This document shows, piece after piece, positions 1 through 45,335 of a stretch of 64,000 bases of DNA. Under the pieces are notes generated by a model, which saw only the letters and a list, made by a program, of their open reading frames with translations, had not been told where the DNA came from and did no database searches. A program made the translations under genes and the position numbers. The DNA lies in NCBI RefSeq assembly GCF_009914755.1, contig NC_060946.1. One strand, 5' to 3'. Origin of the DNA: the human T2T-CHM13v2.0 reference genome, Homo sapiens. The stretch's first letter is position 1, and every line of letters starts with the position of its first letter.

Positions 1-330
1 GTGGATGAATCTTGAAAATATTGTGCTACGTGTTATGTCAGTCATAGCAGCTCACCTATTGTGCAATTCCGTTTATAGGAAATGTCCACAATATGGAAAT
101 CTATGCATATGGGATTGATCGCACTAGGTAGTTGCTACCTAGGGCTGAGGGTCAGGGAGAGGGTTTGAGACAGAATGAGGAGTGACTAATGTCTACAGGG
201 TTTTTCTCTGGTCGGGGGTGATAAGACGTTCTACAATGGATTGCGAATTAAAATTGAATGTGCACAACCACAGGTATAGTAAAAGCCACTCAATTCATGA
301 CGTTTAATGGGGGAATCTTATGTGGCGCAC
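1..330 (+). mobile_element. Old L1M (L1MB-like) 3' end fragment
   Basis: gtggatgaatcttgaaaatattgtgcta...ttccgtttataggaaatgtcca...ggagtgactaatgtctacagggttt resembles the L1MB 3' UTR. The part from 159 on recurs inverted at ~7863-8034. Confidence 0.65.
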
Positions 331-534: not shown

Positions 535-3516
535 TCACCGGTAGTGTGGCCCGCAGGGACGCCGACCTGCTGGAGCGTCGTGCCAGCATGGGCTGTGGCA
601 TCCACGTGGGCCAGCAGGAGGTTCCCGCTGCACAGCTGTGGGGTGAGGATAGACTGGGTGGTGATATCGGCCATTACAGGGGCCTCTTCTGCTGGCAAGA
701 GTGTGACAGTAGCAAGTAGATGGACAGGCCTGTGTGTGAGGACGTAATGCAGGAGGGGCTCTTGTGCGGCTGGGTGTGGGGCCCTCACGGGAACCGTGGA
801 GAAATGGCCAGGTAACTGCGTCATGTGGGCTGGTAGATTGGCCAGGGCTTCGAACTGAAGGACGATAACGGGGAGTAGCTGTCAGGCCCTGGGAGTGCCT
901 GAGTGTAAGTGAAGATGGGTTTGGGGTCACTGAGGGATGCGTGGGAGCCATCCCTGTATAGGTACAGGTCGCAGGGAGATAGCCTCGTGAGGCCTGTGAG
1001 TGTCTAGGGTTGTCCTGGGTGCCTGGGGCTGACTGTGGCAGAAATCTGGGGAAGGCTGGAGAGAAGCTGGGAGACCCAGGAGAGTCCCTGAAGGCAGGGG
1101 GTGAAGAGGTGAAAGAAATGGGGGTGGGTTGCAGTAAGGTCCGTGAGTTTGTAGGTGATTCCTGGGTGCGGGAAGCTGACTCCAGGTGAAATCTGGAGAT
1201 GGTTGGAGAGTAGCTGAGAGAGACAGAAGAGTCCCTGAGGGTTGGGGGTGAGAACATGAGGGAGACGGGGGAGTAAGTCAGTGAAATTCGTGAGTTCGGT
1301 GGTGTATCGTGGGTGCCTGAAACTGACTCCAGCTGGAATCTAGAGAAGTTTTGAGAGTAGCTGAAAGAGACACAAGAGTCCCTGTGGGCTGAGGGCAAAG
1401 ACCTGAGAGAGACCAGGGAGGACCTCAGTGAAGTCTGTGAGTCTGTAGGTGATTCCGGAGTGTGGGAGGCTGACTCCCGCTGAAATGTGGGCGTGGTGGG
1501 AGAGTAGCTGGGACAGACAGGAGAGTCCCAGGGGGCTGGGGGTGAAGACATGAGAGAGAGTGGGGAGTAACTCAGTGAAATTGCTGAGTTGGTTGGTGAT
1601 ACCTGGGTGCCTGGAACTGACCCCCGCTGAAATCTGGGCATGGTTGGAGAGTAGCTGGGACACACAGGAGAGTCCCTGAGGGCTGGGGGTGAAGACATGA
1701 GAGAGACCGGGGAGTAACTGAGTGAAACTGGTGAGTTTGGTGGCGACTCCGGGGTGCGTGGAACTGACTCCAGCTGAAATGTGGGCGTGGTTGGAGAGTA
1801 GCTGGGACAGTCAGGAGAGTCCCTGAGGACTGGTGAAGACATGAGAGAGACTGGAGAGTAATTGAGTGAAATTGGTGAGTTTGGTGGTGATTCCTGGGTG
1901 CCTGGAACTGACTCCCGCTGAAGTGTGGGCGTGGTTGGAGAGTAGCTGGGACACACAGGAGAGTCCCTGAGGGTTGGAGATAAAGACGTGCTAGAGACTG
2001 AGGAGTAACTGAGTGAAATTGGGGAGTTTGGTGGTGATTCCGGGGTGCCTGGAACGGACTCCAGCTGAAATGTGGGCGTGGTTGGAGAGTAGCTGGGACA
2101 GACGGGAGAGTCCCTGAGGGATGGTGAAGACATGAGAGAGACTGGGGAGTAACGCAGTGAAATTGGTGAGTTTGGTGGTGATTTCTGGGTGCCTGCAACG
2201 GACTCCCGCTGAAGTGTGGGCGTGTTTGGAGAGTAGCTGGGACAGACAGGCGAGTCCCTGAGGGTTGGAGATAAAGACGTGCTGGAGACTGGGGAGTAAC
2301 TCAGTGAAAGTGGTGGGCTTGGTGGTGATCCCAGGGTTCCTGGAACTGACCCGCGCTGAAATGTGGGCGTGGTTGGAGAGTAGCTGGGACAGACTGGAGG
2401 GTCCGTAAGGGCTGGGGGTGAAGACGTGAGAGAGACTGGCGAGGATCTCACTGAGGTCTGTGAGTTTGTAGGTGTTTCTGGGGTGTGGGGTACAGACTCC
2501 CCCTGAAATCTGGGCGTAGTTGGAGAGTAGCTGGGACAGACAGGAGAGTCATGGGTGGCTGGGGGTGAGCTGCTGGATGATGGCAGTAAGAACATATGGT
2601 ACATTATTGATGAATGAGGTGACTGTGAAGAATCTCCAGAGGAGGACACGGGAGAACACAATGACATGAGTGACTGTCCTGCTTGGTTAGGAAAGGGAAA
2701 CGTAAAGTTGTGGAATTCTGTTGATGATGGATGTGAGAGTGGTGAAGCCCTGCGGGATGATGTAGAGGACTTCCACATCCCTGGTGAGGAGCTGCCCCTT
2801 GGGTCTGAGTTTCTGGGAGGGGAGAGGGAGAAGCTGGGTGAGGCAGGCATGAATCTTGAGGAGTCAGGGCTGGGGGACCGCTCATATTCTCCCGAGACCT
2901 GTGAGTCTCTGGGGGACTCCTGGGTGCATGGGGCTGACTCCCGCAGGAACCTGGGGGTGGCTGGAGAGTAACTGGGAGCCACAGGAGGGTCCCTGAGGCC
3001 TCGGGGTGAAGAGATGAAAGACACAGGGGTGGAGCACCGTGAGGCTCGTGAGTTGGTAGGTGATTCCTGGGTGTGGGGGGCAGACTCCAGCTGAAATCTG
3101 GGGTTGTTTGGAGAGTAGCTGGGAGGCACAGGAGACCCCCCGAGAGCTGGGGGTGAGATGCTGGGTGATGGCAGTAAGAACCTGTGGTATATTGTTGATG
3201 AACGTGGGGACTCTGAGGAATCCTCAGAGGAGGACACGGGAGAGCCCAATGGCTTCATTGATTGCCCATCACGGTGAGGACAGGGAAATGGGAGCTTGTG
3301 GGATTCTGGTGATGACAGAGGTGAGTGTGGTGAAGCCCTAGGGGATGGTGAATGGTAGCTCCGGATCCCTGGTGAGGAGCTTCCCCTTAAGCCTGAGTTT
3401 CTGAGAGGGGAGAGGGAGAAGCTGGGTGAGGCTCGCATGGACCTTGGGGTGTCCATGCTGGGGGACCGTTCATAAGAAGAGCCAGACAAGACCCTACTCT
3501 TCTTAGGTGCAGACAT
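535..3516 (-). CDS. Intact 993-aa Ser/Pro/Thr-rich repeat ORF encoded by ACRO1-type satellite, RNA Pol II CTD-like; expression unproven
   Basis: ATG with A at -3; 2982 nt without a stop; 49/48-aa tandem repeats; 17 YSP tripeptides, 6 of them YSPTTP; ATTAAA on the minus strand at 303-308, ~230 nt past the stop. Confidence 0.55.
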   Translation of the reverse strand: MSAPKKSRVLSGSSYERSPSMDTPRSMRASPSFSLSPLRNSGLRGSSSPGIRSYHSPSPRASPHSPLSSPESHKLPFPCPHRDGQSMKPLGSPVSSSEDSSESPRSSTIYHRFLLPSPSISPPALGGSPVPPSYSPNNPRFQLESAPHTQESPTNSRASRCSTPVSFISSPRGLRDPPVAPSYSPATPRFLRESAPCTQESPRDSQVSGEYERSPSPDSSRFMPASPSFSLSPPRNSDPRGSSSPGMWKSSTSSRRASPLSHPSSTEFHNFTFPFPNQAGQSLMSLCSPVSSSGDSSQSPHSSIMYHMFLLPSSSSSPPATHDSPVCPSYSPTTPRFQGESVPHTPETPTNSQTSVRSSPVSLTSSPPALTDPPVCPSYSPTTPTFQRGSVPGTLGSPPSPPLSLSYSPVSSTSLSPTLRDSPVCPSYSPNTPTLQRESVAGTQKSPPNSPISLRYSPVSLMSSPSLRDSPVCPSYSPTTPTFQLESVPGTPESPPNSPISLSYSSVSSTSLSPTLRDSPVCPSYSPTTPTLQRESVPGTQESPPNSPISLNYSPVSLMSSPVLRDSPDCPSYSPTTPTFQLESVPRTPESPPNSPVSLSYSPVSLMSSPPALRDSPVCPSYSPTMPRFQRGSVPGTQVSPTNSAISLSYSPLSLMSSPPAPWDSPVCPSYSPTTPTFQRESASHTPESPTDSQTSLRSSLVSLRSLPSAHRDSCVSFSYSQNFSRFQLESVSGTHDTPPNSRISLTYSPVSLMFSPPTLRDSSVSLSYSPTISRFHLESASRTQESPTNSRTLLQPTPISFTSSPPAFRDSPGSPSFSPAFPRFLPQSAPGTQDNPRHSQASRGYLPATCTYTGMAPTHPSVTPNPSSLTLRHSQGLTATPRYRPSVRSPGQSTSPHDAVTWPFLHGSREGPTPSRTRAPPALRPHTQACPSTCYCHTLASRRGPCNGRYHHPVYPHPTAVQREPPAGPRGCHSPCWHDAPAGRRPCGPHYR
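985..3190 (-). repeat. 147/144-bp tandem satellite (ACRO1-type), left copy
   Basis: The gagtagctg anchor (or a one-base variant) recurs at 1061, 1208, 1355, 1502, 1649, 1796, 1940, 2087, 2231, 2378, 2525, then 2966 and 3113. A 147-bp unit flanked by MER21 and L1MB pieces matches the ACRO1 composite as I recall it. Confidence 0.85.
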
Positions 3517-3569
3517 GATAAGGATAAGAAATAAGGATAAGTTCAGAAATAAATGTGGGGCCCAGCATG

Positions 3570-3740
3570 TGGGGAGGGGCGCTCTACCTTCCAGGAAGTG
3601 TTATCCAGAAGCTCTCTGAACCCAGTCCTTTTGGGTTTTGATGGAGACCTCATTCTATAGGCATGATGGGTTAAACCATACGCTATTGGTGATCAACTCC
3701 ACCTGAGGCTCTCCACCCTCCCTGGAAATTGGGTTTGAGG
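3570..3740. mobile_element. MER21-family LTR fragment in the palindrome spacer
   Basis: ccagaagctctctgaacccagtccttttgggttttgatggagacctcatt...ggcatgat...attggtgatcaactc; similar to the element at 22250-22350. Confidence 0.65.
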
Positions 3741-3822
3741 CTTTGCCATTCTCAGTCTGACTAAAAGAATTTACCCAAACGGAATTTTAAAACAGATGTG
3801 CATAACTGGAATCTTAATTAGA

Positions 3823-3833
3823 TGATTGGATTA
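3823..3833 (-). promoter_or_regulatory. DUX4-type double-homeodomain motif TAATCCAATCA
   Basis: Plus strand tgattggatta; its reverse complement is an exact match to the TAAYYYAATCA consensus. Confidence 0.65.
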
Positions 3834-4295
3834 TCTGGAGCCACACCTTGATATTCCTAACCCGAGCACCCTCATCCAACGAATTCTCCACCCAACTGGC
3901 TCCCAAGTCTCTACGTGGTTCCAGAGCAAAAGAATGTTTATACAACGCATATCTCCACCTTTTCTTCAAAGTCTTTTCGCTTACACGGAAAGACTTCTTC
4001 AACTGCCATGCATCAGGGTCAGGGGGAGGTCTTGTTACAACACAGATCTGCGGATCTCCGGGGTTTGATTGTGGCAGGGATGCTGCTGGTGTCAAAACCA
4101 CAACGTGGGAAGCACAGAACCACTAGTTGGTTTTCAGTGTTTCAGTGCATACAGTTCCTTATATATCTGGCCAAGAAATCTTGTAAGTTCTTAGATTGTC
4201 ACAAAGGTGGCGCATGAAATCAGAGCAGGAGAACAGTTTCCTACGAGGTGTATCCTGGGAAAGTTGGGGGTGACTGATGGAAAGGAGGAGTGAAG

Positions 4296-4365
4296 CTCCG
4301 CCCTTTCCGCTGCTAGGCTGCGCCCGAGGCTATTTAAACCCACCCTGGCTGGCCTGTACTCAGAT
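4296..4365 (+). promoter_or_regulatory. Pol II core promoter: GC box, TATA-like box, Inr-like site
   Basis: ctccgccc 4296-4303; tatttaaa 4331-4338; actcaga ~27-31 nt downstream; locally CpG-rich to ~4420; faces the ATG at 4678. Confidence 0.6.
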
Positions 4366-4487
4366 CTTCGCGGAGCGGATCAGCGGCCGGAGCGTTTGGC
4401 GGACTCTGCGTGGACTTGGAGCTCACAGCATCTTGCGACTTTGAAGCGGATTCAGAGGACAGGAGAGAACACTTGGGCAAGTGAATC

Positions 4488-4616
4488 TCTGTCTGTGTGT
4501 CTGTCTGTCTGTCCCATTGTTTGGTTGATTTCCATTTTCTTCAGGGGCACATACATCACACCGCACACACACAAACACACACACACACACACGCACACAC
4601 ACTCACGCACACACAC
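4488..4616 (+). repeat. (TCTG)n and (CA)n microsatellites in the putative leader/intron
   Basis: tctgtctgtgtgtctgtctgtctgtc at ~4488-4513; CA-rich run 4564-4616. Confidence 0.9.
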
Positions 4617-4677
4617 TCCTTCCTTCTGCGAGTTAGAACATTAGTAGGGGCCCCTGGGTGCTGCAGGTTTCCTAACC

Positions 4678-7658
4678 ATGTCTGCACCTAAGAACAGTAG
4701 GGTCTTGTCTGGCTCTTCTCTTGAACGGTCCCCCAGCCTGGACTCCCCATGGTCCATGCGAGCCTCACCCAGCTTCTCCCTCTCCCCTCACAGAAACTCA
4801 TGCTTAAGGGGAAGCTCCTCACCAGGGATCCGGAGCTACCATTCACCATCCCCTAGGGCTTCACCACACTCACCTCTGTCATCACCAGAATCCCACAAGC
4901 TCCCATTTCCCTGTCCTCACCGTGATGGGCAATCAATGAAGCCATTGGGCTCTCCCGTGTCCTCCTCTGAGGATTCCTCAGAGTCCCCACGTTCATCAAT
5001 AATATACCACATGTTCTGACTGCCATCACCCAGCAGCTCACCCCCAGCTCTGGGGGATCTCCTGTGTCTCCCCGCTACTCTCCAAACAACCCCAGATATC
5101 AGCTGGAGTCTGCCCCCCACACCCAGGAATCACCTACAAACTCACGATCCTCACAGTGCTCCACCCCTGTGTCTTTCATCTCTTCACCCCGAGGCCTCAG
5201 GGACCCTCCTGTGGCTCCCAGTTACTCTCCGGTCATCCCCAGGTTCCTGCGCGAGTCAGCCCCATGCACCCAGGGGTCCCCCAGAGACTCACAGGTCTCG
5301 GGAGAATATGAGCGGACCCCAGCCCTGACTCCTCAAGATTCATGTCTGCCTCACCCAGCTTCTCCCTCTCCCCTCCCAGAAACTCAGACCCAAGGGGCAG
5401 CTCCTCACCAGGGATGTGGAAGTCCTCTACATCTTCCCGCAGGGCTTCACCACTCTCACATCCATCATCAACAGAATTCCACAACTTTACTTTTCCCTTT
5501 CCTAACCAAGCAGGGCAGTCACTCAGGTCTTTGTGTTCTCCCGTGTCCTCCTCTGGAGATTCTTCACAGTCACCTCATTCATCAATAATATACCATATGT
5601 TCTTACTGCCATCATGCAGCAGCTCACACCCAGCCACCCATGACTCTCCTGTCTGTCCCAGCTACTCTCAAAATACGCCCAGATTTCAGCGGTAGTCTGT
5701 ACCACACACCCCAGAAACACCTGCAATCTCACAGACCTCAGTGAGATCCTCGCCAGTCTCTCTCACGTCTTCACCCCCAGCCCTTACGGACCCTCCAGTC
5801 TGTCCCAGCTACCCTCCAGCCACGCCAACATTTCAGCGCAGGTCAGTTCCACGAACCTGGGGATCACCACCAAGCCCACAACTGTCACTGAGTTACTCCC
5901 CAGTCTCCAACATGTCTTTATCTCCAACCCTCAGGGACTCGCCTGTCTGTCCCAGCTACTCTCCAAACACGCCCACACTTCAGCGAGAGTCCGTTGCAGG
6001 CACCCAGAAATCACCACCAAACTCACCAATTTCACTGCGTTACTACCCAGTCTCTCCCATGTCTTCACCATCCCTCAGGGACTCTCCCGTCTGTCCCAGC
6101 TACTCTCCAACCACGCCCACATTTCAGCTGGAGTCCGTTCCAAGCACCCCGGAATCACCACCAAACTCCCCAATTTCACTCAGTTACTCCTCAGTCTCTA
6201 GCACGTCTTTATCTCCAACCCTCAGGGACTCTCCTGTGTGTCCCAGCTACTCTCCAACCACGCCCACACTTCAGCGGGAGTCAGTTCCAGGCACCCAGGA
6301 ATCACCACCAAACTCACCAATTTCACTCAATTACTCTCCAGTCTCTCTCATGTCTTCACCAGCCCTCAGGGACTCTCCTGTCTGTCCCAGCTACTCTCCA
6401 ACCATGCCCACATTTCAGCTGGAGTCAGTTCCAGACAACCCGGAGTCACCACCAAACTCACCAGTTTCACTCAGTTACTCCCCCGTCTCTCTCATGTCTT
6501 CACCCCCAGCCCACAGGGACTCTCCTGTGTGTCCCAGCTACTCTCCAACCATGCCCAGATTTCAGGGGGAATCAGTTCCAGGCCCCCAGGTATCACCACC
6601 AAACTCAGCAGTTTCACTGAGTTACTCCCCACTCTCTCTCATGTCTTCACCCCCAGCCCCCTGGGACTCTCCTGTCTGTCCCAGCTACTCTCCCACCACG
6701 CCCACATTTCAGCGGGAGTCAGCCTCCCACACTCCGGAATCACCTTCAGTCTCCCAGACTTCACTGAGGTCCTCCCTGGTCTCTCTCATGTCTTTGCCCT
6801 CAGCCCACAGGTACTCTTGTGTCTCTTTCAGCTACTCTCAAAACTTCTCTAGATTCCAGCTGGAGTCAGTTTCAGGCACCCACGATACACCACCGAACTC
6901 ACGAATTTCACTGACTTACTCACCAGTCTCCCTCATGTTCTCACCCCCAACTCTCAGGGACTCTTCTGTCTCTCTCAGCTACTCTCCAACCATCTCCAGA
7001 TTTCACCTGGAGTCAGCTTCCCGCACCCAGGAATCACCTACAAAATCACGGACCTTACTGCAACCCTTCCCCATTTCTTTCACCTCTTCACCCCCTGCCT
7101 TCAGAGACTCTCCTGGGTCTCCCAGCTTCTCTCCAGCCTTCCCCAGATTTCTGCCACAGTCAGCCCCAGGCACCCAGGACAACCCTAGACACTCACAGGC
7201 CTCACGAGACTATCTCCCTATGACCTGTACCTATACAGGGATGGCTCCCACGCATCCCTCAGTGACCCCAAACCCATCTCCACTTACACTCAGGCACTCC
7301 CAGGGCCTGACAGCTACTCCCCGTTATTGTCCTTCGGTTCGAAGCCCTGGTCAATCTACCAGCCCACATGACGCAGTTACCTGGCCATTTCTCCACGGTT
7401 CCCGTGAGGGCCCCACACCCAGCCGCACAAGAGCCCCTCCTGCATTCCGTCCTCACACGCAGGCCTGTCCATCTACTTGCTACTGTCACACTCTTGCCAG
7501 CAGAAAAGGCCCCTTTTAATGGCCGATATCACCACCCAGTCTATCCTCCCCCCACAGCTGTGCAGCGGGAACCTCCTGCTGGCCCACGTGGATGCCACAG
7601 CCCATGCTGGCATGACGCTCCAGCAGGTCGGCGTCCCTGCTTGCCACACTACCGGTGA
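4678..7658 (+). pseudogene. Disrupted copy of the 993-aa ORF (right arm)
   Basis: Collinear with 535-3516 but has TTA>TGA (5017-5019), -1 indel ~5055, -1 indel ~5318, GAG>TAG (5693-5695) and +1 indel ~7514. The ORF-track pieces 4678-5019, 5064-5588, 5342-5695, 5741-7519 and 7368-7658 tile it. Confidence 0.85.
5005..7210 (+). repeat. 147/144-bp tandem satellite (ACRO1-type), right copy
   Basis: Repeated cccagctactctccaacc units mirroring the left copy. Confidence 0.85.
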
Positions 7659-8034
7659 TATGGCTAGCGTGATCCTCGTTCCTTGCAATGACACTGTTGA
7701 TGTGAACCCCAGTTTCACATCTGTCATTTGTAAATAGGACCATTTTCCCTTTTCGCTCTCCCTTCCATTCACAGGGCTTTTCATTCTCTCTGTTTCTGCC
7801 TCCATTTCAGATATTTACTCACCTTTTTCTCTCTCACTATGTCTGCCGTGTTCTCCATGAGAGTGCGCCACATAAGATTCCCCCATTAAAAGTCATGAAT
7901 TGAGTGGCTTTTAGTATACCTGTGGTTGTGCACATTCAATTTTAATTCGCAATCCATTGTAGAACGTCTTATCACCCCCGACCAGAGAAAATCCCTGTAG
8001 ACATTAGTCACTCATCATTCTGTCTCAAACCCTC

Positions 8035-9721
8035 AGGGCCTGATGTGAAGGCACTTTCGTCTGTAGGGGACACATGACCTGCTTCTCTGTGGCGCGGTTT
8101 TTTTTTTTTTTTCCTGCCATGGATGCCTCACCTCTCCTTCCTCAAATCTCACCTTCCCCTCATGGCCCTTCTGTCTTCCTTGGGGTACACCTAGCCGCCC
8201 GAGGTGCCCTGTGACCTCGAACCACGGACTCCAGGGTCCCTGAGGCCCAGCGCAAGGCCTGATGGGCAGACACTTTCGTCCGTGTGGAGGTCCCAGTCCC
8301 CGCTTCTCCGTGGCTGGGTTTTTATTTTCTCTGCCCCAGGTGCCTCACCTTCCTCTCTTGTGCCTTCTGCATGCTTTGGGGTACCCCTAGCGGCCCGAGG
8401 CACACCCTGGGCTCGAACCATGGAATCCAGGTTCCACTGGGCCAAGCGGATTGGCTGATGGGAAGACACGTTCTTCCTCGGGGACCCAGGCTCTTCTTCT
8501 CTGTGGCGTTTTTTTTTTCTTTTCCCCATGTGCCTCACTTTCCCGTCATGGGCTTTCTGCCCGCCTTTAGGTACCCCTAGCCGGCCCGAGGCGCAGTGTT
8601 GTTTTGAGCCAGGGATGCTAGGGTCACCGTGACCCAGTGCAGGACTTATGGGTAGGGACGTTCGTCCATGGGGGACCCAGGCCCCACTTCTGGAAGCGCA
8701 GTTTTTTATTTTCTTCTCTGCCACCGGTGTCTCACCTTTCCCTCATGGGCCTTCTGTCTTGGGGTACCCCTAGCAGTCCCAGGGGCAAGCTGGGCTCGAG
8801 CCTGGGATTCCAGGGTCCCCAGGGCGCAATGCAAGCGCTGATGGGAAGACAGTTTCTTCTGTGGGGGACCCAGGCCCCGCTTATCCGCGGCACGGTTGTT
8901 GTTGTTTTTTTTTCTCTGCCCCACGTGCGTCACCTTCCCCTCATGGGCCCTCTGCCTGCTTTTGTGTACCCCTAGCGGCCTGAAGCGCACCCTGGTCTCG
9001 AACAAGGAATGCCAGGTTCCCCTGGGCCCAGCGCAAGGGCTGATGGGAAGACACTTTCGTCCATTGGGGACCCAGGCTCCGCTTCTCCGTGGTGCAGTTT
9101 TTTTTTTTCTGCCACAGGTGCCTCACCTCTCCTTCCTCAAACCTCAACTGCCCCTCATGGGATTTCTGACCGCCTTGTGGTACCCCTAGCAGGCCCGAGG
9201 TGCACCCGGGGCTCGAACCAGGATCTCCAGCGTCCACAGGGCCCAGCGCAGGGACTGATGGGAAGGCATTTTCATCCTTGGGGGACCCAGGCCCAGGTTC
9301 TCCTAGGCGCGGCTTGTTTTCTTTTTTTTTTTTCTGCCACAGGTTCCTCACCTCTCCTCCCTCAAACGTCAACTTCCCATCATGGGCTTTCTGCTCGACT
9401 TGGGGTACCCCTAGCTGCCCAAGGCGCTCCCTGGACTCGAACCATGGATGCCAGAGTCGCCGGGGCCTAGCGCAGGGGCTGATGGGAAGGTACCTTCATC
9501 CGTGGGTACCCAGGCCCCGCTTCTCAAAGCTGCGGTTTTTTTCTCCGCCCCAGGTGCCTCACCTTCCCCTCACTGGCCCTCTGCCTGCTTTGGGGTACCA
9601 CGCGCAGGCCCGAGGCGCTCCCGGGTCTCCAATCAGGGTCGCCAGGTTCTCGGGGCTAGCGCAGAGGCTGATGGGAAGGCACTTTCATCAGTGGGGACCC
9701 AGGTCCGGCTTCTCCGAGGTG

Positions 9722-9778
<57 letters not shown>

Positions 9779-11314
9779 TTTTTTTTTCTGACACAGGTGA
9801 CTCACCTCTCCTCCCTTAAATCTCGCCTTCCTCTCATGGGCTTTCTGGCTTCCTTAGGGTACCCTAGCATGCCGGAGTCTCTTCTGGTCCTTGAACTAGG
9901 GTCGCCAGAGTCCAGGGGGCCCAGCGCAGGGGCTGATGAGAAGGCACTTTCGTCCGTGGGAGACCCAGGTCCCGCTTCTCTTCCGCACGGTTTTTTTTTT
10001 TTCTGTCGCAGGTGCCTCACCTCTCTTCCCTCAAACCTCACCTTCCCCTCATGGGCCTTCTGCCCGCTTTGGGGTACACCTAGCGGGCCCGAGGTGCACC
10101 CAGGCCTATAACCAGGGTCGCCTGGGTCCACGGGGCCCAGTGCAGGGACTGATGGGAAGGCACTTTCTTTCCATGGGAGACCCAGGCCCCACTTCTCCGT
10201 GGCGTGGTTTCTTTTTCTTTTCTGTCACAAGTGTCTCACCTCTCCTCCCTCACAGCTCACCTTCCTCTCATGGGCTTTCCACCGCCTTGGGGTACCCCTA
10301 GTGGCCCGAGGCTCTCCCTGAGCTCGAACCAGGGACTCTAGATTCCCCGGGGCCCAGTGCAGGGCCTGATGGGAAGGCACTTTCATCCGTGGGGTACCCA
10401 GGCCACACCTTTCCGCGGCACGGGTTTCTTTTTTTTCTTTTTCTGTGACAGGTGCCTCACCTCTCCTCCCTCAAAACTCACCTTCCCCTCACGGGCTTTG
10501 TGTCCCCAAAGCCCCCCTTGGGGTGCACTTGGCGGCCGAGGCACACCCTGAGCTTGAACGAGGGACACCAGGGTCCCTGGGTCCCAGTTCAGGGACTGAT
10601 GGGAAGACACTTTCGTCTGTGGGGCACCCAGGCCGTGCTTCTCCGCGGCGAAGTTTTTCTTTTTTTCTCTGCCCCAGGTGCCTCACCTTCCCCTTAGGGG
10701 CTTTCTGCCCACCTTGGGGTACCCCTACTGTCCCGAGGCGTACCCCAGGGTCAAACCAGGGACGCCAGGGTCCCCAGGGCCCAGGGAAGGGGCTGATGGG
10801 ATGGCACTTTCATCCGTGGGGGGCCCAGGCACTGCTTCTCGGCTGAGCGTTTTTTTTTCTCTGCCTCAGGTGCCTCACCTTCCCCTCATGGACCTTTTGT
10901 TCGCTTTGTGGTACCCCAAGCTGTCCTGAGGCGCACCCTGGGCTTGAACCAGGGTCGCCAGGGTCCACCAGGCCCAGCATAGGGCCTAATGGGAAGGCAC
11001 TTTCATCCGTGGGGAACCCAGGTCCCGCTTCTCTGATACGCGGTCCTCTTTTTTTTTTTTTCTGCCCCTGCTGCCTCACCTCTCCTCCCACAAACTTCAA
11101 CTTCCACTCATGGGCCTTCTGTCCAAGTTGGGGTACCCCTAGTCGCCTGAGGCACACCCTGGGCGTGAACCAGGGATGCCAGGGTCCCTGGGGCCCAGCG
11201 CAAGGGCTGATGGGAAAAAACTTTCGTCCCTGGATGACCCAGACACCGCTTCGCGGCGCATTTTTTTTTCTTCTTTGCCCCAGGTGTCTCACCTTCCTCT
11301 CATGGGCCTTCTGC
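8035..11314. repeat. GC-rich ~190-225-bp tandem satellite, ~16 units (gamma-satellite/GSATII-like)
   Basis: The ctgatgggaaggcactttc...gggacccaggccccgcttctc...poly-T...caggtgcctcacct...ggggtacccctag motif recurs about every 200 bp; one unit has a (TA)n expansion at ~9726-9774. Family name is tentative. Confidence 0.8.
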
Positions 11315-12079
11315 CTCTCTGCGCCTGCGCCGGCGCTGTGGGCCTCTCTGCGCCTGCGCCGGCACTGTGGGCCTCTCTGCGCCTTTCGCCAGCGCTGTGG
11401 GCCTCTCTGGACCTGCGCTGGCGCTGTGCTCCTTTGCGAGGGCGGAGCTGCGTTCTTCCCAGCACAGACAAGGAAAGCATCGCCAGGGCGGAGCTGAGTT
11501 CTCCTCTGCACAGACTTCAGAGATACAGCGAAGGCGGAGCAGTGTTCTCCTCAGCACAGACCCAGGCGGGCCGGGGGCACCGCGAGGGCGGAGCCGCGTT
11601 CTGCTCAGCACAGACCCGGGGGACACCGCTAAGGCAGAGCAGCCTTCTCCTCAGCACAGACCTTTGGGGCACTGCCTCGCTTTGGGACAACTCGGGACCG
11701 CATAGACGGTGAATAAAATCCTTCCCTTTTGCAGCCCTGAATAATCAGGGTCAGAGACCAGTTAGAAGGGCTCAGTGTGGAAAAGGGAAACCAAAAGCCC
11801 CTCTGAATCCTGCCCACCGAGGTTCTCCCCAGCCAAGCCGAGGCGGCCGCAGTGCGAGATCCACACCGCAGCCTCGGAAGACAAATGCAGCATTCCTAAT
11901 GCAGACATGACACCCAAAATATGACACCCCCATTGCTCATGTAACAAGCACCTGTAATGCTAATGCACTGCCTCAATACAAAAATATTAATATAAGATCC
12001 GCAATCCCCTTGCTGCCATGCAGTCCTAAGACAGAGATCATAATAATCAACATTGGCATAGTACAAACGTAGTAACGAA
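11315..12079 (+). repeat. TAR1 telomere-associated repeat with 29-bp CpG-rich repeats
   Basis: Four copies of ctctctgcgcctgcgccggcgctgtgggc-like 29-mers; five gggcggagc...cagcacagac units; then the typical distal subtelomeric sequence leading into TTAGGG. Confidence 0.9.
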
Positions 12080-12388
12080 CCTAGGGTTAAGGTTGGTGTT
12101 AGGGTTAGGGGTTAGGGGTTAAGTTTAGGGTTGGGGTTGGAGATAGGGGTTGGAGTCAGAGTTAAGAGTTAAGAGTCAACGTTTAGAGTTAGAGGTTAGG
12201 AGAGGTTAGGGGTTAGGGATAAGGGGTTAGGGTTGGATTAGTGTGAGGGTGAGGGTTGTGGTTAGGGGTTAGGCTTAGGGTTTATGGTTAAGGGTTAGGG
12301 TTAGGGGTTAGGGTTAGGGTCAGGGGTTAGGGGTCAGGGTCAGGGGTTAGGGATCAGGGTCAGGGGTCAGGGTCAGGTTCAGGGGTCC
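12080..12388 (+). repeat. Degenerate interstitial telomeric tract (TTAGGG/TTAGGGG/TCAGGG/TGAGGG variants)
   Basis: Direct reading; G-rich strand on plus. Confidence 0.95.
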
Positions 12389-36427: not shown

Positions 36428-39400
36428 GAGTGTACATGCCCCTGTGATATTGTTCCTAATATGCAGGTTGGGAGAGGATATTATACTCAATATTGCAGGA
36501 AGTGTCGACCACCCTGAATATTGCTTTTAATATCCAGGGAGAGAGGGTGATATTACTCCCAATATCATCCTCTCCCCCCACACCCTGCATAGTACAAGCA
36601 ATATCAAAGGGGGTCTGTGCAACACGTGCAATATTGGGAGTAATATCCTCCCCCAACATGGATATTAGAAACAGTATCACAAGGGGTTGTACACCACCTG
36701 TGATATTGTGGAGTACTATCATTTTCTTTCCCCATGGATATGTAGAACAATATCACAAAGGTGGTGTACAACCCCTGCTATATTGGGAGTAATACTGTAC
36801 TTTCCCCACCTAGATATTAGGAACAATATCACGGGGGGTTATACACCACTGCAACATTGGGAGTAATATCATCCTTTCCCTCCCTGGATATTAGGAACAA
36901 TACCTCATGGGTGTGTACACCCTGTTCCATATTGGGATTAATATTTTCTCCCTTGCTGGACATAAGGAAAAATATAACGGGGGGTATACACTCCTTATGA
37001 TATTGCCAGTAATATTATAGACTCCCCAAAGGGATATTAGAAAGAGTATCAGAGAGGGGTGTACATCCCCTGCTATATTGGGAATAATATTCTTTCTTTC
37101 CCTGGATATTAGTAATAATATCACAAAGGGGTTGTATACCCCCCGTGACATTTTAATTAATATCATCTTCCCCACTGAATATTAGGAACAAATTCCCAGG
37201 GGATTGTACACCACCTGCAATATGGACGGCTATATCATTGTCTCTCCCCCGAATATAAGGAACAATATCACAAGGGGGTTGTACAACCCCTGTGATATTG
37301 GGAGTAACTTTATACCCTTTCCACATGGATATTAGGAACAATATCACAGGGTGGGTGTACACCCACTGCGATATTGGGAGTAATATCATCCTCTACCCCC
37401 TGGGTATTATGAACAATATCATGGGGAGGGGGTGTATGCCCTCTGTGATATTGGGAGTAATATCATCCTGTCCCCTCTGGATATTAGGAAGGATATCACA
37501 GCGGGGCTGTACCTTTCTGCACTATTGGGAGTGGTATCACCCTCTCCCCCTATGGATATTAGGAACAATATCACAAAGGGGGTGTACACATCCTGCGATA
37601 TTGAGAGTAATATTGTCCACTCTTCCCTGGAATATTAGGAACAATATCACAGGCAGAGTGTACACCCCCTGCTATTTTACCTGTAATATTATTCTCTCCC
37701 AACCTGGATATTAGGAATAATATAACAGGAGGGTTGTACACCACTTGTGATATTGGGAGTAATATCATTCTCTCCCCCCATGGATATTGAGAACAATATC
37801 ACAGGGGCAGCTTACACCTCCTGCGCCATTTAGAGTAATATCATCCTTTTCCCCCATGGATATTAGGAACGATATCGCATGGGAAGTGTACACCCCCGCC
37901 ATATTGGGAGTAATATTTTCTCCCTTGCTAGATATTAGGAACAATATCACGGGAATGCACACACCCTGCGATATTGCCAGTAATATCGTAGTCTCCTCCC
38001 AGGATATTAGGAACAATATCACAAGGGGGGTGTACATGCCCTGTGATATTGGAAGTAATATCATCGACTCCCCCAACGGATATTAGTAACAATAGCAGAA
38101 GGGGTGTACACCCCTTGCAATATTTATAGTACTATCATCCTATACCCCCTGGATATTAGGAACAATACCACGGGGAGGTGTATACCCACTGTGATATTGG
38201 GAGTAATTTCATCCTCTACCCCTTGGATGTTAGGAGCAGTATCACAAGGGGGATGTGCACCCTCTGTGATATTAAAAATAATACCATTCTCTCCTTCTGT
38301 GGATACTAGGAATAATATCACAGTGCTGGTGTACACCCTTTACACTATTTGGAGCAATATCACCCTCTCCCCCACTTGATATTAGAGACAATATCATGGG
38401 GGGTGGCGTGTAACACCCTGCACTGTTGGGAGTACTATCATCTAGTCTTCCCCTGGATATAAGAAACAGTATCACAGAAGGGGTCTACACCTCCTGAGAT
38501 TTTGGGAGTAATATCATCCTCTCCAAATCTGGATATTAAGGACAGTATAATGGGGTGTGGGGAGTAATATGGTGGGAGTAATACAATCCTCCTCCCCACT
38601 TGATATTAGGAACAATATCGCAAAACGTGTGTACACCCACTGTGACATTTGGAGTAATATCAACATTTCCCCACCTGGTATCACGGGGAGAGTGTACAGT
38701 CCTTACGATATTGGAAGTATCATTGTCTCTCACTCTCGATATTAGGAAAAATAGCACAGGGTGTGTATACACTTCCTGTGATTTTGGGAAGAACATCATA
38801 CCCTTCTGTCTTTGATATTAGGAACAATATCACAGAGGGGGTGTACAACTTCTGTGATATTATAATATTCTTTCTTCCTATGGATATTAGGAATGATATC
38901 CCGGTGGGCTTGTTGTACACCCCCTGTGATACGGACAGTAATATCATTGTCCTTCCCCCTACATATTAGAAACAATATCACAAGGGTGGTATACACCCCC
39001 TGGATATTAAAAACTATCACAGGGGGGCTGTACAACCTCTTTGATACTGTGAGTAATACCATTGTCTCCCCTCCTGGGTATTAATAACAATATCATAGGG
39101 TGGGTGTACACCCCCTGCAATATTGGGAATAATATCATCCTGTCTTCCCCGGGATATTAGGAACGGTATCACAGGTGGGGTTTACACCCCCTGCAATTTT
39201 GTCAGTAATATTACTTCTGGATGTTATTGAATATATCACAGTGGGGGTGTACACCCCCTGTGATATGGGGAGTAATAGCATCCTCTTTCCCACTGGATAC
39301 TACAAACAATATCGCAGATTGTGTACAACCTCCTGTGATATTGTTCACAATATTTAGGGAAGGAGAGGATGATATTACTCCACATATCGCAGGGAGTGTT

Positions 39401-40274
39401 ACATCCCCTGTAATATTGTTCATAATATTTAGAAGACGACAGGATGATATTACTCCCAATATAGTAGGAAGTATACACTCCCCTGTGATACTGTTCATAA
39501 TTTTTAGGGGATTAGAGGATGATATTACTTCCAATATCACAGGGAGTGTACACTGGTGATATTGTTTATAATTTTCAGTGGATTAGAAGATATTATTCCG
39601 AATATCACAGGGGTTGTACATCCCCAAGTGATATTGTTAATATTCAGTGGGAAAGAGGATGATATTACTCCCCATATCACGGGGGATGTAAACCCGTTTG
39701 TGGTATTGTCACTTACATCTGGGGGGGAGAGGATGATATTACTCTGCATATCATAGAGGGTGCACACGGCTGTAATGTTGTCCATAATAACATCCAGAGG
39801 GGAAGAGAATATTATTCCCATGTTTCAGAAGGTGTACACACCCCTGTGATAGTCTCTGTAACATTTAGGGAAGAAGGGGATGATACTACTCCAGATATTG
39901 CAGGGGGTGTACACCCCCCTGTGATACTGTTCATAACGTTTAGGGGAAAGAGGATGATATTACTCCCCATATCGAAGGGATTGTACATCTCCCTATATAT
40001 TGTCCATAACATCCAGGACAGGAGAGGATATTACTACTCCCCATATCACAGGGGGTGGACAACCCCCTCTAAATATGTCTAACATCCAGGCGGGAACAGG
40101 AGGATATTTTTCCCCATAACCCAGAGAAAGTAAACCTCCTGCGATATTGTCCATAACATCCAGTGGGGGGAGGATGATATCACTCCCCATATTGCAGGGG
40201 GTGCACACTCCACTCTGATATTGGCCGTAATATCCGGGGGGGTGAAGTATGAAGTCACTACACATATCGCAGGG
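36428..40274. repeat. SATR1/SATR2-type ~73-bp satellite, block 1
   Basis: Tandem ggatattaggaacaatatcacagggggtgtacaccccctgtgatattgggagtaatatcatcctctccccc units; orientation switches near 36560 and 39330. Confidence 0.9.
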
Positions 40275-41238
40275 ATTATTAGTATCAGATTGTTTGAAGG
40301 GCTCACAGTAAGGGTAGTAGTAGGGCGAGTTCTAACTCAAATAGGGGAAATGTGATGGCTACTAGAAAGAATTTTATGGAGAAGGGAATGTGGGCAGAGG
40401 ATAGAGGGTCAAATCTGCATTCATAAGGGCTAGATTTTTCTATATATATTTATTTTATACATATATATATTTTTTTCTCTCTCTCTACTTATATATATTA
40501 AGTTGTGGGAGCCAAAATGTAATAATTATTAGTAACAGGGCAAATAGGGTGTTGATTACTAGGGTTAATGTTAGGTGAATTACTGTTTTTCGGATGCTAT
40601 CAAAACTTTGGAAATCATGGTACTATTTATACTAAAAGAGTAAGATCCTCATCAATAAGTAGAAACATACAAGAATAGTCATACTACATCTACAAAGTGT
40701 CGATATCAGGCAGCGGCTTCAAAGGCAAAGTGATGACTAGATGTAAAGTGGTATTTTAATTGGCGGAGAAGGCAGACTGAGGAATGTTGACCCAATAATG
40801 ACGTGAATTCTGTGAAAGCCTGTAGCTATAAAAAATGTTGAGCCATAAATACCATCAGAAATAGCAAAGGGAGCTTTGAAGTATTCTGAGACTTGTAGGA
40901 GGGTGAAGTAAATATCTAATATAATTGTAACAGGTAGTGCTTGGATTGTATGTTTTTGATTATTTTTTGTTAGGCTGTGATGGGCTCAAGTAATTGAAAC
41001 TCCTGATGCAAGTAATACAGATGGATTCAGGAGAGGTACTTCCAGGGGGTCAAGGGGAGAAATACCTGTTGGGGGTCAATGCCCTCCTAATTCTGGAGTA
41101 GGGGCTAGGCTAGAATGGTAGAATGCTCAAAAGAATCCAGCGAAGAGGAATATTTCTGAGATAATAAATAGGACTGTCCCATATTGGAGGCCTTTTTGAA
41201 CAGTTGTTGTATGGTGACCCTGAAATGTACTTTCTCAG
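40275..41238 (-). pseudogene. NUMT piece 1: 3' part of MT-CO3, tRNA-Gly, most of MT-ND3
   Basis: Reverse complement matches mtDNA: ND3 ~40275-40580 (ttctccataaaattctttctagtagc), tRNA-Gly 40581-40641 (actcttttagtataaatagtacc), COX3 40642-41238; (TA)n-rich expansion at 40441-40498. Confidence 0.92.
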
Positions 41239-41254
41239 ATACAGAACACCCTTG

Positions 41255-42597
41255 GTCAATTGAATACAGATCAATCACTTTAAGTAAGCTAAGTCCTTAC
41301 TAAATTGATGAGACTTAAACCCATGAAAACTTAACAGCTAAACTCCCTAGTCAACTGGTTTGAATCTACTTCTCCAGCCGCTGGGGGAAAAAGGGTGAGA
41401 GAAGCAGGATTGAAGCTGCTTCTTTGAATTTACAATTCAACATGAAAATCACCTTGGGACTGGTAAAAACAGGCGTTGACCTCTGTTTTTAGATGTACAG
41501 TCTAATGCCCTACTCAGTCATTTTACCCTTTTTTCTCACTTCATTTATGTTGGCTGACAGTTGACTATTCTCAACCAACCATAAAGATATCGGGACATTA
41601 TATTTATTATTTGGCACATGAGCAGGGATAGTCAGTACAGCTTTAAGCCTTATTCGAGCTGAACTCTACTAGATGATCAAATTTATGTCATTGTTATAGC
41701 CTATGCATTTGTCATAATTTTCTTTATAGTAATACTATAATTGGAGGTCTTGGCAACTGATTAGTCCCCCGATAATTGGCGCCCCCGATATAGCATTTCT
41801 CTGCATAAATAATATGAGCTTCTGACTCCTCCCACCCTCCTTCCTATTATTACTTGCATCCACTATAGTAGAAGCCGGCACTGGAACCGGCTGAACAGTC
41901 TCTCCTCCCTTAGCAAGAAACCTAACACATGCAGGCGCCTCTGTAGATTTCACTATCTTTTCACTCCACTTGACAGGTGTTTCTTCTACTTGAGGGGCTA
42001 TTAACTTTATTACCACAATTGTTAATATAAAACCCCCAGCCATGTCCCAATATCACACACCCCTCTTCATCTGATTAGTCCTAATTACAGCAGTTCTTCT
42101 ACTCCTTTGTCTCCGAGTCCTAGCCGCCAGCATCACTATATTGTTAACTGACTGCAATCTTAATACTATTTTTTTCTACCTGGCTGGCGGAGGTGATCCT
42201 GTCTTATTTCAGCATTTATTCAGATTCTTTGGTCACCCTGAAATCTACATCCTCATCCCACTGGGCTTTGGGATAATTTCCCACGTCGTAACATACTATT
42301 CTGGAAAAAAAAGAACCATTCAGGTATATGGGCCTAGTGTGAGCTATAGGATCAGTTGGATCCTTACAGTTTATTGTATGGGCCCACCGTATATTTACGG
42401 TAGGGATAGATGTGGATACATGAGCCTGCTTCACCTCTGCTATTATAATTATTGCTATTCCTACTAGCGTCAAAGTTTTTAGCTGACTAGCTAGCTACAC
42501 TTCACGGCGGTAATATCAAATGATCCCCCGCAATGCTGTGAGCCCGGGGATTTATTTTCCTTTTTACAGTAGGAGGCCTAACCAGCATTGTATTGGC
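41255..42597 (+). pseudogene. NUMT piece 2: tRNA-Ala(part)/Asn, OL, tRNA-Cys/Tyr and 5' ~1 kb of MT-CO1
   Basis: WANCY-region text (taagctaagtccttact...cttctccagccgc...gaagctgcttctttgaatt); COX1 ATG at 41547; peptide [26 protein letters not shown]; multiple indels. Confidence 0.95.
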
Positions 42598-42654
42598 TGA
42601 GGCTTATATTATGGTTCATTCATACATTTAGAAACCTGAAAGTTTCTAAATAAG

Positions 42655-43190
42655 TTGTAAAAAAGTTGTAAAAACACCCCAGCTGAAATAACTACGAAGG
42701 TGCCTTTAATATTCTGAAGACAAAATAGCTAAGATCCAAACTGGGAGTAGATACCCCGCTATGCTTAACTCTAAACTCGAATAGTTAGATCAACAAAACT
42801 GTTGGCCAGAACACTACAAGCAACAGCTTAAAACTCAAAGGACTTGGCGGTGCTTTATAGCCCTCTAAAGGAGCCTGTTCTATAATCGATAAACCGCAAT
42901 TTACCTCACCACCTCTTACCCAGCCTAAATACCTCCATCTTCAGCAAACGCTGGAAAGGCCGCAGAGTAAGCACAAGTATCTACATAAAAACTTTAGGTC
43001 AAGGTGTAGCCCATGAGGTGGCAAGAAATGGGAACGTTTTCTACATCCAGAAAAATGTCGCGACAACCGTTATGAAATCTAAGGGCTCAAGGAGGATTTA
43101 GCAATAAATTGAGAGCAGAGTGTTTAATTGAATAAGGCCATGAAGCATGCACACACCGCCCGTCACCCTCCTCAAATATATTCTAGAAAT
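42655..43190 (+). pseudogene. NUMT piece 3: internal mitochondrial 12S rRNA fragment
   Basis: aaactgggagtagatacccc; aaactcaaaggacttggcggtgcttta; cacacaccgcccgtcaccctcctc. Confidence 0.95.
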
Positions 43191-43196
43191 TCATTC

Positions 43197-45335
<2,139 letters not shown>

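What the first reader, a model, noticed from the sequence alone, without database searches (positions are those of the whole stretch)
1654..1800. The 147-bp satellite monomer is exactly seven degenerate RNA Pol II CTD heptads in register
Seen: 147 bp = 49 codons = 7 x 7 aa. The unit at 1800->1654 reads YSPTTPT / FQLESVP / RTPESPP / NSPVSLS / YSPVSLM / SSPPALR / DSPVCPS. Against Y1-S2-P3-T4-S5-P6-S7, S/T-P sits at positions 2-3 in 6 of 7 heptads, S/T at position 5 in 5 of 7, and an aromatic at position 1 in 3 of 7. The N and D starts (AAC, GAC) are one base from TAC. The DNA shows the same 21-nt phase: tactctccaaccacgcccaca, aactcaccagtttcactcagt, tactccccggtctctctcatg, gactctcctgtgtgtcccagc. 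Established: YSPTSPS is the RPB1 CTD consensus and YSPTTP occurs among human non-consensus heptads. Inference: this satellite is an amplified 7-heptad block descended from, or convergent on, the POLR2A CTD, and its product could be a free CTD mimic for CTD kinases, phosphatases or readers.
Basis: partly seen in the sequence, partly recalled or inferred. Interest (0 to 1): 0.95.

Follow-up and report, generated by a model that had tools for sequence, protein, structure and literature searches.

The report
Hidden polymerase-tail gene in ACRO1 satellite
This repeat is the known ACRO1 satellite, whose likeness to the tail of RNA polymerase II is already published; it also sits inside a reading frame of about 1,000 codons that is open in most human copies sampled and in a predicted marmoset protein, so these arrays are likely a multi-copy primate gene rather than plain satellite DNA.

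Summary
In detail: the 147-bp unit has a real 21-nt/7-aa period and matches (YSPTSPS)7 at 23 of 49 residues. It is ACRO1, and the CTD likeness and possible descent from POLR2A were published in 2020 (PMC7714431). Descent is supported here at DNA level. 'Exactly seven heptads' overstates it: heptads 2 and 3 score negative on a CTD DNA profile. A strict CTD mimic fails: no YSPTSPS and almost no tyrosines seven apart. The larger result lies outside the flagged span. The array is part of a 993-codon ATG frame (3516->535). In the 6-kb ACRO unit this frame follows a DUX4-type motif, a TATA-like box and a predicted intron. It is open (>=860 aa) in 28 of 46 human copies sampled, and a marmoset model shares its start and end. 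Stops and frameshifts are depleted, but amino acids change almost neutrally, and two Old World monkey models are truncated. Best reading: a POLR2A-derived multicopy macrosatellite gene for a disordered Ser/Pro protein, likely expressed at embryonic genome activation. Translation is unshown. Automated annotation and one preprint sentence already hint at it. Both copies in this window look defective.

The parts
1654..1800 (-). Flagged ACRO1 monomer, 49 codons in 7-residue register
535..3516 (-). 993-codon ATG-to-stop frame spanning the whole ACRO1 array and both flanks; 23% Ser and 18% Pro in the near-identical chr13 copy L012
1066..2529 (-). Main array: ten 147/144-bp monomers, all in frame; only indel is one codon
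2331..3474 (-). Older internal duplication with a 588-bp (28 x 21) offset; the two 556-bp copies differ at about 22% of sites with no gap and no stop
535..916 (-). C-terminal ~127 codons; their first ~80 are CTD-phased DNA read in a shifted frame. The old CTD frame holds stops here and the new frame does not; the new frame is shared with the marmoset model (start approximate)
3517..3524 (-). Inversion junction: homology to other ACRO units ends about 8 bp upstream of the ATG, so this copy lacks its own acceptor, intron, first exon and promoter
303..308 (-). ATTAAA, candidate poly(A) signal about 230 bp past the stop (predicted)
3823..3833 (.). DUX4-type motif (consensus recalled), the only one in the 64-kb window; the surrounding 24-mer occurs exactly 172 times genome-wide, the listed matches lying about 860 bp upstream of ACRO start codons
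4298..4338 (+). GC-box (4298) and TATA-like TATTTAAA (4331) of the plus-strand unit; predicted promoter
   Evidence: TATA-like box present in 36 of 41 copies
4359..4480 (+). Predicted non-coding first exon (start approximate; no ATG in the predicted spliced leader of copy L012); similar sequence appears in titi-monkey gene models
4481..4666 (+). Predicted ~190-bp GT...CAG intron holding TCTG and CA microsatellites
4678..7890 (+). Inverted ACRO copy (96.5% identical to the minus arm) with promoter but broken frame: stops at codons 114 and 340, three 1-bp indels; ATTAAA at 7885

Best explanation
The monomer is the repeat unit of a long reading frame that likely descends from the POLR2A CTD exon and likely makes the 6-kb ACRO unit a multicopy primate gene for a predicted disordered Ser/Pro-rich protein. 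Shown: the frame, the 21-nt CTD phase from the ATG through the array, in-register duplications (147 and 588 bp), the open frame in most copies sampled, and a marmoset model with the same start and end. Inferred: in hypomethylated germline and cleavage-stage chromatin, DUX4 binds the upstream motif, the TATA promoter fires, and a short first exon is spliced to one large coding exon, so the stop lies in the last exon. The ~100-kDa product, with about 100 S/T-P sites, would act as a bulk substrate or low-complexity scaffold for proline-directed kinases. Selection appears to keep length and serine content, not the heptad code. The published cis-acting Pol II-binding RNA effect would damp leaky somatic transcription. 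The flagged copy has lost its promoter and its inverted neighbour has lost its frame, so both are probably defective members.
For: 993-codon frame with 0 internal stops, vs 10 and 17 in the other two sense frames and a mean of 25 (minimum 10) in 2,000 base shuffles. CTD DNA phase scores z>=2 in 43 of 45 windows from +19 to +2791 of copy L012 and in 0 of 33 windows outside; all 41 windows up to +2539 are in the coding frame, with phase shifts only in multiples of 3. Frame >=860 aa in 24 of 41 plus 4 of 5 copies, out of 260 start-pattern matches vs 11 for the control pattern. Marmoset model of 832 aa: 263 of 367 and 117 of 159 identities in collinear blocks with one gap; neutral simulation to that identity gives ~9 stops, and 0 of 400 runs are stop-free at either matching rate. 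Among monomers, 0 nonsense in 122 variants vs 3.2 expected (p=0.024). Among copies, 6 frameshifts in the frame vs 10.9 expected from flanks (p=0.008), none shared between copies vs 5 shared in flanks. Descent: serine codons are TCN at heptad positions 2 and 5 (92 of 92) and AGY at position 7 (15 of 18), as in POLR2A (72 of 93 and 22 of 26); synonymous-recoding p=0.005; 14 of 27 non-consensus codons are one step from CTD codons vs 9.2 expected, p=0.012. Literature passages: DUX4 activates ACRO1 (PMC8990217), expression peaks at the 4-cell stage (PMC6545021), germline hypomethylation (PMC5832720).
Against: No transcript, splice junction, ribosome footprint or peptide was seen. dN/dS is near neutral: 0.68-0.84 for the 588-bp duplicates and 0.74-0.90 for monomers, with no synonymous excess among copies (211 vs 197, p=0.13). 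The nonsense deficit among copies (5 vs 13.9, p=0.007) is echoed in a control frame (5 vs 11.8, p=0.018), so that null is biased. 18 of 46 copies are broken or short; the sample is not random (17 come from one chr3 array) and the reference was chosen intact. Baboon (282 aa) and colobus (291 aa) models leave the frame before the array, and titi models hold only the C-terminal part. The marmoset model is a prediction whose DNA was not seen, was found because it is open, and has a ~65-aa stretch that reads like the shifted frame. Gene conversion can restore frames in acrocentric arrays (10.64898/2025.12.22.696095). Serine retention is only weakly above neutral (p 0.01-0.10) and proline retention is neutral. 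Boots et al. found no stable transcripts in HeLa.
Confidence: 0.55

Rival explanations
1. ACRO is a POLR2A-derived relic that acts, if at all, as DNA or as cis-acting Pol II-binding RNA. The open frame is inherited from its coding origin and kept by stop-poor C-rich composition, in-register recombination and gene conversion, not by selection on a protein.
For: Reporter and SELEX data show cis inhibition by the sense RNA (PMC7714431). Near-neutral dN/dS. Control frames are also stop-poor. Whole-unit gains and losses are in frame automatically because units are multiples of 3. A single 49-codon unit stays stop-free in about 37% of neutral runs. Truncated Old World monkey models.
Against: 182 CTD codons evolved to 45% identity stay stop-free in only 3 of 150 runs, before indels are counted. 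Human-marmoset collinearity over 526 codons. Small-indel deficit (p=0.001). Past the old frameshift, the CTD frame gains stops while the continuous frame stays open.
Confidence: 0.27
2. The product is a true free CTD decoy that is phosphorylated by CDK7/CDK9/DYRK1A and titrates CTD readers and phosphatases during embryonic genome activation.
For: 17 YSP, 6 YSPT[ST]P, 10 PSYSP and 15 [ST]P-x-[ST]P motifs in 993 aa. RPB1 chains are the top 13 of 15 PDB sequence hits (best E 8.9e-6). The timing of expression fits.
Against: 0 YSPTSPS vs 21 in the CTD; YSP spacing is 20-28 or 49, never 7; one Y-x6-Y pair. Di-heptads are the CTD's functional unit and Tyr1-to-Ala prevents phosphorylation by CTD kinases (PMC6715403 passages). 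The marmoset array keeps the least CTD-like heptads and mostly loses YSPTxP. No Pfam RPB1-repeat hit.
Confidence: 0.13
3. Convergence or another parent: a C-rich Ser/Pro repeat, or a copy of another heptad gene, resembles the CTD without descent from POLR2A.
For: DNA identity to POLR2A is only 83 of 147. No unique heptad origin could be located. Alignment to the POLR2A 3' UTR is not significant (182 vs 150+/-25).
Against: Composition-preserving nulls are beaten. ZNF768 heptads score -12 bits vs +33 for POLR2A, and +32 when POLR2A is subsampled to the same 17 heptads. The position-specific TCN/AGY pattern matches POLR2A. Mucins were not tested directly.
Confidence: 0.05

Closest known systems
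ACRO1 satellite / ACRE or ACRO composite (PMC7714431; 10.64898/2025.12.22.696095)
   Same: Same element: 147-bp unit, long and short arrays in a 6-kb unit, acrocentric arrays, 23 of 49 identity to the CTD, descent proposed.
   Different: The passages read treat it as satellite or RNA aptamer. They do not describe a continuous ~1,000-codon frame, promoter/intron anatomy, DUX4-type motif or frame retention. [quoted passage not shown]
RPB1 (POLR2A) C-terminal domain
   Same: 7-residue register, S-P at positions 2-3, AGY serine at position 7, Ser/Pro/Thr composition.
   Different: No polymerase core, no consensus heptad, no tandem Tyr1, near-neutral amino-acid change, higher-order 49-mer repeat, unrelated Cys/His-rich C-terminus.
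Macrosatellite-embedded multicopy genes such as DUX4 in D4Z4 (abstract); USP17L/RS447 and TSPY recalled
   Same: One predicted transcription unit per tandem repeat, primate-restricted, germline or embryo expression, mix of intact and broken copies, copy-number change between generations (PMC12746033).
   Different: Those have demonstrated proteins with folded domains; here the product is unproven, low-complexity and itself built of a satellite.
ZNF768 heptad array
   Same: A second human protein with CTD-related heptads (relation to the CTD recalled).
   Different: F/Y-E-x-x-S-P heptads with AGC serine at position 5, fused to zinc fingers (recalled); poor profile match to ACRO1.
Automated gene models 'RPB1', 'RPB1-like', 'putative extensin-like'
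   Same: Marmoset, baboon and colobus models and a 70-member Atlas cluster with a 993-aa representative appear to be this same frame.
   Different: Names are automatic, from compositional similarity; the gene table supplied lists no gene at this copy.

Membership tests
ACRO1 satellite | 147-bp tandem unit in 1.3-2.4 kb and ~256-bp arrays within a ~6-kb unit | tested here: met
   vs description
ACRO1 satellite | Arrays on acrocentric arms, chr3 and chr4 | tested here: met
ACRO1 satellite | Direct match to the Dfam/RepBase ACRO1 consensus | not testable with these tools
   No repeat library on hand; identity rests on unit length, layout, distribution and the same 23/49 figure
RPB1 CTD (functional) | Consensus YSPTSPS heptads | tested here: not met
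   0 in 993 aa vs 21 in POLR2A
RPB1 CTD (functional) | Tandem Tyr1 seven residues apart (di-heptad unit) | tested here: not met
   One Y-x6-Y pair; YSP spacings 20-147; di-heptad unit from PMC6715403
RPB1 CTD (functional) | Attached to the RPB1 catalytic core | tested here: not met
   No Pfam domain reaches its cut-off; PDB hits cover only RPB1 residues 1506 onward
RPB1 CTD (functional) | Phosphorylation by CTD kinases and binding of CTD readers | not testable with these tools
   Needs bench work
POLR2A CTD-derived sequence | 21-nt period in register with the CTD DNA profile | tested here: met
POLR2A CTD-derived sequence | Shared synonymous codon choices (TCN at 2/5, AGY at 7) | tested here: met
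   p about 0.005
POLR2A CTD-derived sequence | Homology to non-repeat POLR2A flanks (upstream exon, 3' UTR) | tested here: inconclusive
   3' UTR 182 vs 150+/-25; upstream exon 217 vs 147+/-19 (maximum 203 of 200 shuffles) but gappy and composition-prone
Macrosatellite-embedded protein-coding gene | One long ATG frame per tandem unit, intact in many copies | tested here: met
   28 of 46 copies >=860 aa
Macrosatellite-embedded protein-coding gene | Promoter, splice and poly(A) signals in order | tested here: inconclusive
   Motifs are present and ordered but use is not shown; the acceptor has a weak pyrimidine tract
Macrosatellite-embedded protein-coding gene | Purifying selection on the frame | tested here: inconclusive
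   Stops and frameshifts depleted; dN/dS near 1; control frame partly depleted
Macrosatellite-embedded protein-coding gene | Translated protein detected | not testable with these tools
   No expression data on hand; no such report surfaced in searches

The most novel reading that the evidence does not exclude
The ACRO arrays on every human acrocentric arm are an unrecognised family of roughly 250 copies of a simian gene born from the Pol II CTD exon, switched on by DUX4 at embryonic genome activation (and in FSHD and some tumours), whose ~1,000-residue product competes for CTD kinases, phosphatases or condensates, with dosage that varies between generations.
Probability: 0.2. Interest if true: 0.88.

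Novelty: new member of a known kind. Interest (0 to 1): 0.55.

Why it matters
The flagged likeness is already published. But ACRO is described as the repeat class most consistently enriched on ape acrocentrics, with no known role. If each unit is a gene, a 'satellite' masked out of RNA-seq, Ribo-seq and proteomics pipelines is one of the highest-copy protein-coding families in the genome. It would be a DUX4 target relevant to embryo activation and FSHD, a possible tumour antigen, and a case of gene birth from a piece of the polymerase itself. The anatomy given here makes this directly testable with existing datasets.

Tried and rejected
Pfam RPB1-repeat search of the genome rang nowhere, not even at POLR2A or in controls, so it is uninformative. 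The idea that the monomer comes from the first CTD heptads (GGAMSPS/YEPRSPGG) was tested and not favoured; best scores fall in the consensus stretch. POLR2A 3' UTR homology: not significant. ZNF768 as parent: rejected. A one-lineage simulation suggested strong serine conservation (0 of 300); the fairer two-lineage version reduced it to p 0.01-0.10, and the weaker figure is the one used. The sigma-70 scan is irrelevant to a human promoter and is not used. Structure and complex prediction were not run: the protein is low-complexity and a model would be meaningless. The deep profile search for non-primate relatives was still queued, so the taxonomic range rests on three word-seeded searches, two of them capped at 8,000 candidates; none returned a named non-primate relative other than apparent contamination. 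Literature searches 'RPB1-like + acrocentric' and 'extensin-like + T2T-CHM13' gave 0 papers; 'ACRO1 + CTD' gave only Boots. Only the first 100 of 260 start-pattern matches were listed and 44 genomic copies fetched, so most chr14/15/21/22 copies were not examined.
Full report
Observation. The unit belongs to an array at 1057-2568; an inverted copy lies at 5642-7179, the arms being 96.5% identical over 3,367 bp. The 21-nt period is real. Lags 21, 42 and 63 are the top three DNA autocorrelations (0.438 vs 0.291+/-0.02, 0 of 20,000 codon shuffles); amino-acid lags 7/14/21 give 0.299 vs 0.13; identity to seven YSPTSPS is 23 of 49 against a shuffle maximum of 22 in 50,000. Heptads 2 and 3 score negative on a POLR2A DNA profile, so five heptads are recognisable and two are filled in by register.

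Identity and prior art. Unit length, layout and distribution match ACRO1 in the 6-kb ACRO composite. Boots et al. 2020 (PMC7714431) report 23 of 49 identities to the CTD, note the heptad nature, propose descent from the CTD mRNA, and show that the sense RNA binds Pol II and blocks elongation in cis; they found no stable transcript in HeLa. I saw its abstract, passages, Results part 1, section 9 and supplement passages, but no figures. The flagged claim is therefore known.

Descent. The POLR2A CTD exon was located by pattern (21 matches, all on C17) and fetched. Across 11 monomers, serine codons are TCN at heptad positions 2 and 5 (92 of 92) and AGY at position 7 (15 of 18); POLR2A has 72 of 93 and 22 of 26. 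Synonymous recoding gives p=0.005, and 14 of 27 non-consensus codons are one step from CTD codons (9.2 expected, p=0.012). ZNF768 heptads fit far worse (-12 vs +33 bits). No source heptad could be located, and 3' UTR homology was not significant. Mucins were not tested directly.

The larger structure. The array lies in a 993-codon frame from an ATG at 3516 to a stop at 535. In chr13 copy L012, 1.65% from the window copy, CTD phase begins at the ATG and ends near +2850. It scores z>=2 in 43 of 45 windows inside and 0 of 33 outside, and is in the coding frame in all 41 windows to +2539. After about +2600 the phase moves to another frame, which holds stops while the continuous frame stays open. 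An older 588-bp duplication (28 x 21) has about 22% divergence with no gap or stop. The plus-strand unit shows, in order, a DUX4-type motif (3823; consensus recalled), GC and TATA-like boxes (4298, 4331), a GT at 4481, a CAG acceptor at 4666, the ATG at 4678 and ATTAAA at 7885. The 24-mer with the motif has 172 exact matches vs 0 for the control; the start pattern has 260 vs 11. None of these signals is shown to be used.

Copies. Of 46 copies examined (44 fetched plus the window's two), 28 have a frame >=860 aa (24 of 41; 4 of 5). One of these runs off the fetched end and one ends in unrelated sequence; 17 come from one chr3 array. The flagged copy is intact but lacks its promoter, first exon and acceptor; its neighbour has them but carries two stops and three frameshifts.

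Other primates. A marmoset model named RPB1 (P0007, 832 aa) shares start and end, with 263 of 367 and 117 of 159 identities in collinear blocks. It has a ~65-aa stretch resembling the shifted frame, and its DNA was not seen. Baboon and colobus 'RPB1-like' models (282 and 291 aa) share the start, are 78-82% identical over ~250 aa and then leave the frame. Two adjacent titi models hold the C-terminus followed by first-exon-like sequence, implying tandem units. The Atlas lists a 70-member 'putative extensin-like' cluster with a 993-aa representative (score 0.96, low recognition value, a lead only). Most other hits are 90-100% identical or fragmentary and probably human contamination, a known problem for ACRO1 (PMC6581058 passages).

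Selection. For: about 9 stops are expected between human and marmoset, with 0 of 400 neutral runs stop-free at either matching rate. There are 0 nonsense among 122 monomer variants vs 3.2 expected (p=0.024; star simulation 0.9%). Frameshifts are 6 vs 10.9 expected (p=0.008, microsatellite intron left out). Neutral decay of 182 CTD codons to 45% identity stays open in 3 of 150 runs. Against: dN/dS is 0.68-0.90; there is no synonymous excess; the among-copy nonsense deficit also appears in a control frame; serine retention is weak and proline neutral; gene conversion and ascertainment could inflate intactness. The pattern fits selection on an open, serine-rich frame rather than on sequence.

CTD mimicry. 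There are 80 SP, 20 TP, 6 YSPT[ST]P and 0 YSPTSPS, and one Y-x6-Y pair. RPB1 chains are the best PDB matches; no Pfam family reaches cut-off. Di-heptads are the functional unit and Tyr1 matters for CTD kinases (PMC6715403 passages). The marmoset array mostly lacks YSPTxP. It may be phosphorylated like a CTD; it is not a member.

Expression context (passages only): DUX4 activates ACRO1 (PMC8990217; 10.64898/2025.12.22.696056); 4-cell peak (PMC6545021); hypomethylated in spermatogonia and sperm (PMC5832720); raised in plasma vesicles in metastatic Ewing sarcoma (PMC11060741). Strand and splicing are not given in these passages.

Novelty. [quoted passage not shown] The 2025-26 acrocentric preprint, the ape genome preprint, the T2T repeat preprint (12 of 20 places shown) and a review describe ACRO as a repeat in the passages seen. 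Ten searches surfaced no paper on the full frame, its anatomy or its retention. Subscription papers and bioRxiv supplements were outside reach.

Verdict. Observation confirmed and already published; descent supported; strict mimic not supported. The worthwhile lead is the likely multicopy gene (0.55), with a non-coding relic at 0.27, a true decoy at 0.13 and convergence at 0.05. Interest 0.55.

Noticed in passing
L004:801-1877 (G000:C2:161739833, +): Dispersed short ACRO copy with an in-frame 1,905-bp deletion giving an intact 358-aa frame with promoter and acceptor; unnamed protein P0008 is 350 of 358 identical. A single-locus member that would be easy to assay.
   Followed up: partly
P0019, P0025: Proteins labelled Plasmodium ovale wallikeri 'PIR superfamily'/hypothetical and 'RPB1, partial' are 92-100% identical to the human ACRO frame over the query; likely human contamination in that assembly.
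   Followed up: partly
window 3516-4678: Head-to-head junction: the intact but promoterless minus copy starts about 310 bp from the DUX4-type motif of the plus unit, so bidirectional activity there could in principle transcribe it.
   Followed up: no
window 8148-11033: Diverged 195-217-bp GC-rich tandem array (gamma-satellite-like; name recalled).
   Followed up: no
window 11313-12387: 29-bp and 46/100-bp repeats followed by a degenerate TTAGGG-type array, like a subtelomeric junction sitting inside the short arm.
   Followed up: no
window 36599-45333: About 75-bp satellite arrays in both orientations flanking the annotated MT-CO3/MT-CO1 pseudogene fragments.
   Followed up: no
L015 (G000:C14:2609, +): Most distal chr14 copy has an expanded array; its frame is at least 1,400 aa and runs off the fetched stretch.
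   Followed up: no
L021, L023-L025 (chr3 array): Four copies share the same stop after codon 452, showing a broken allele spreading within an array.
   Followed up: partly
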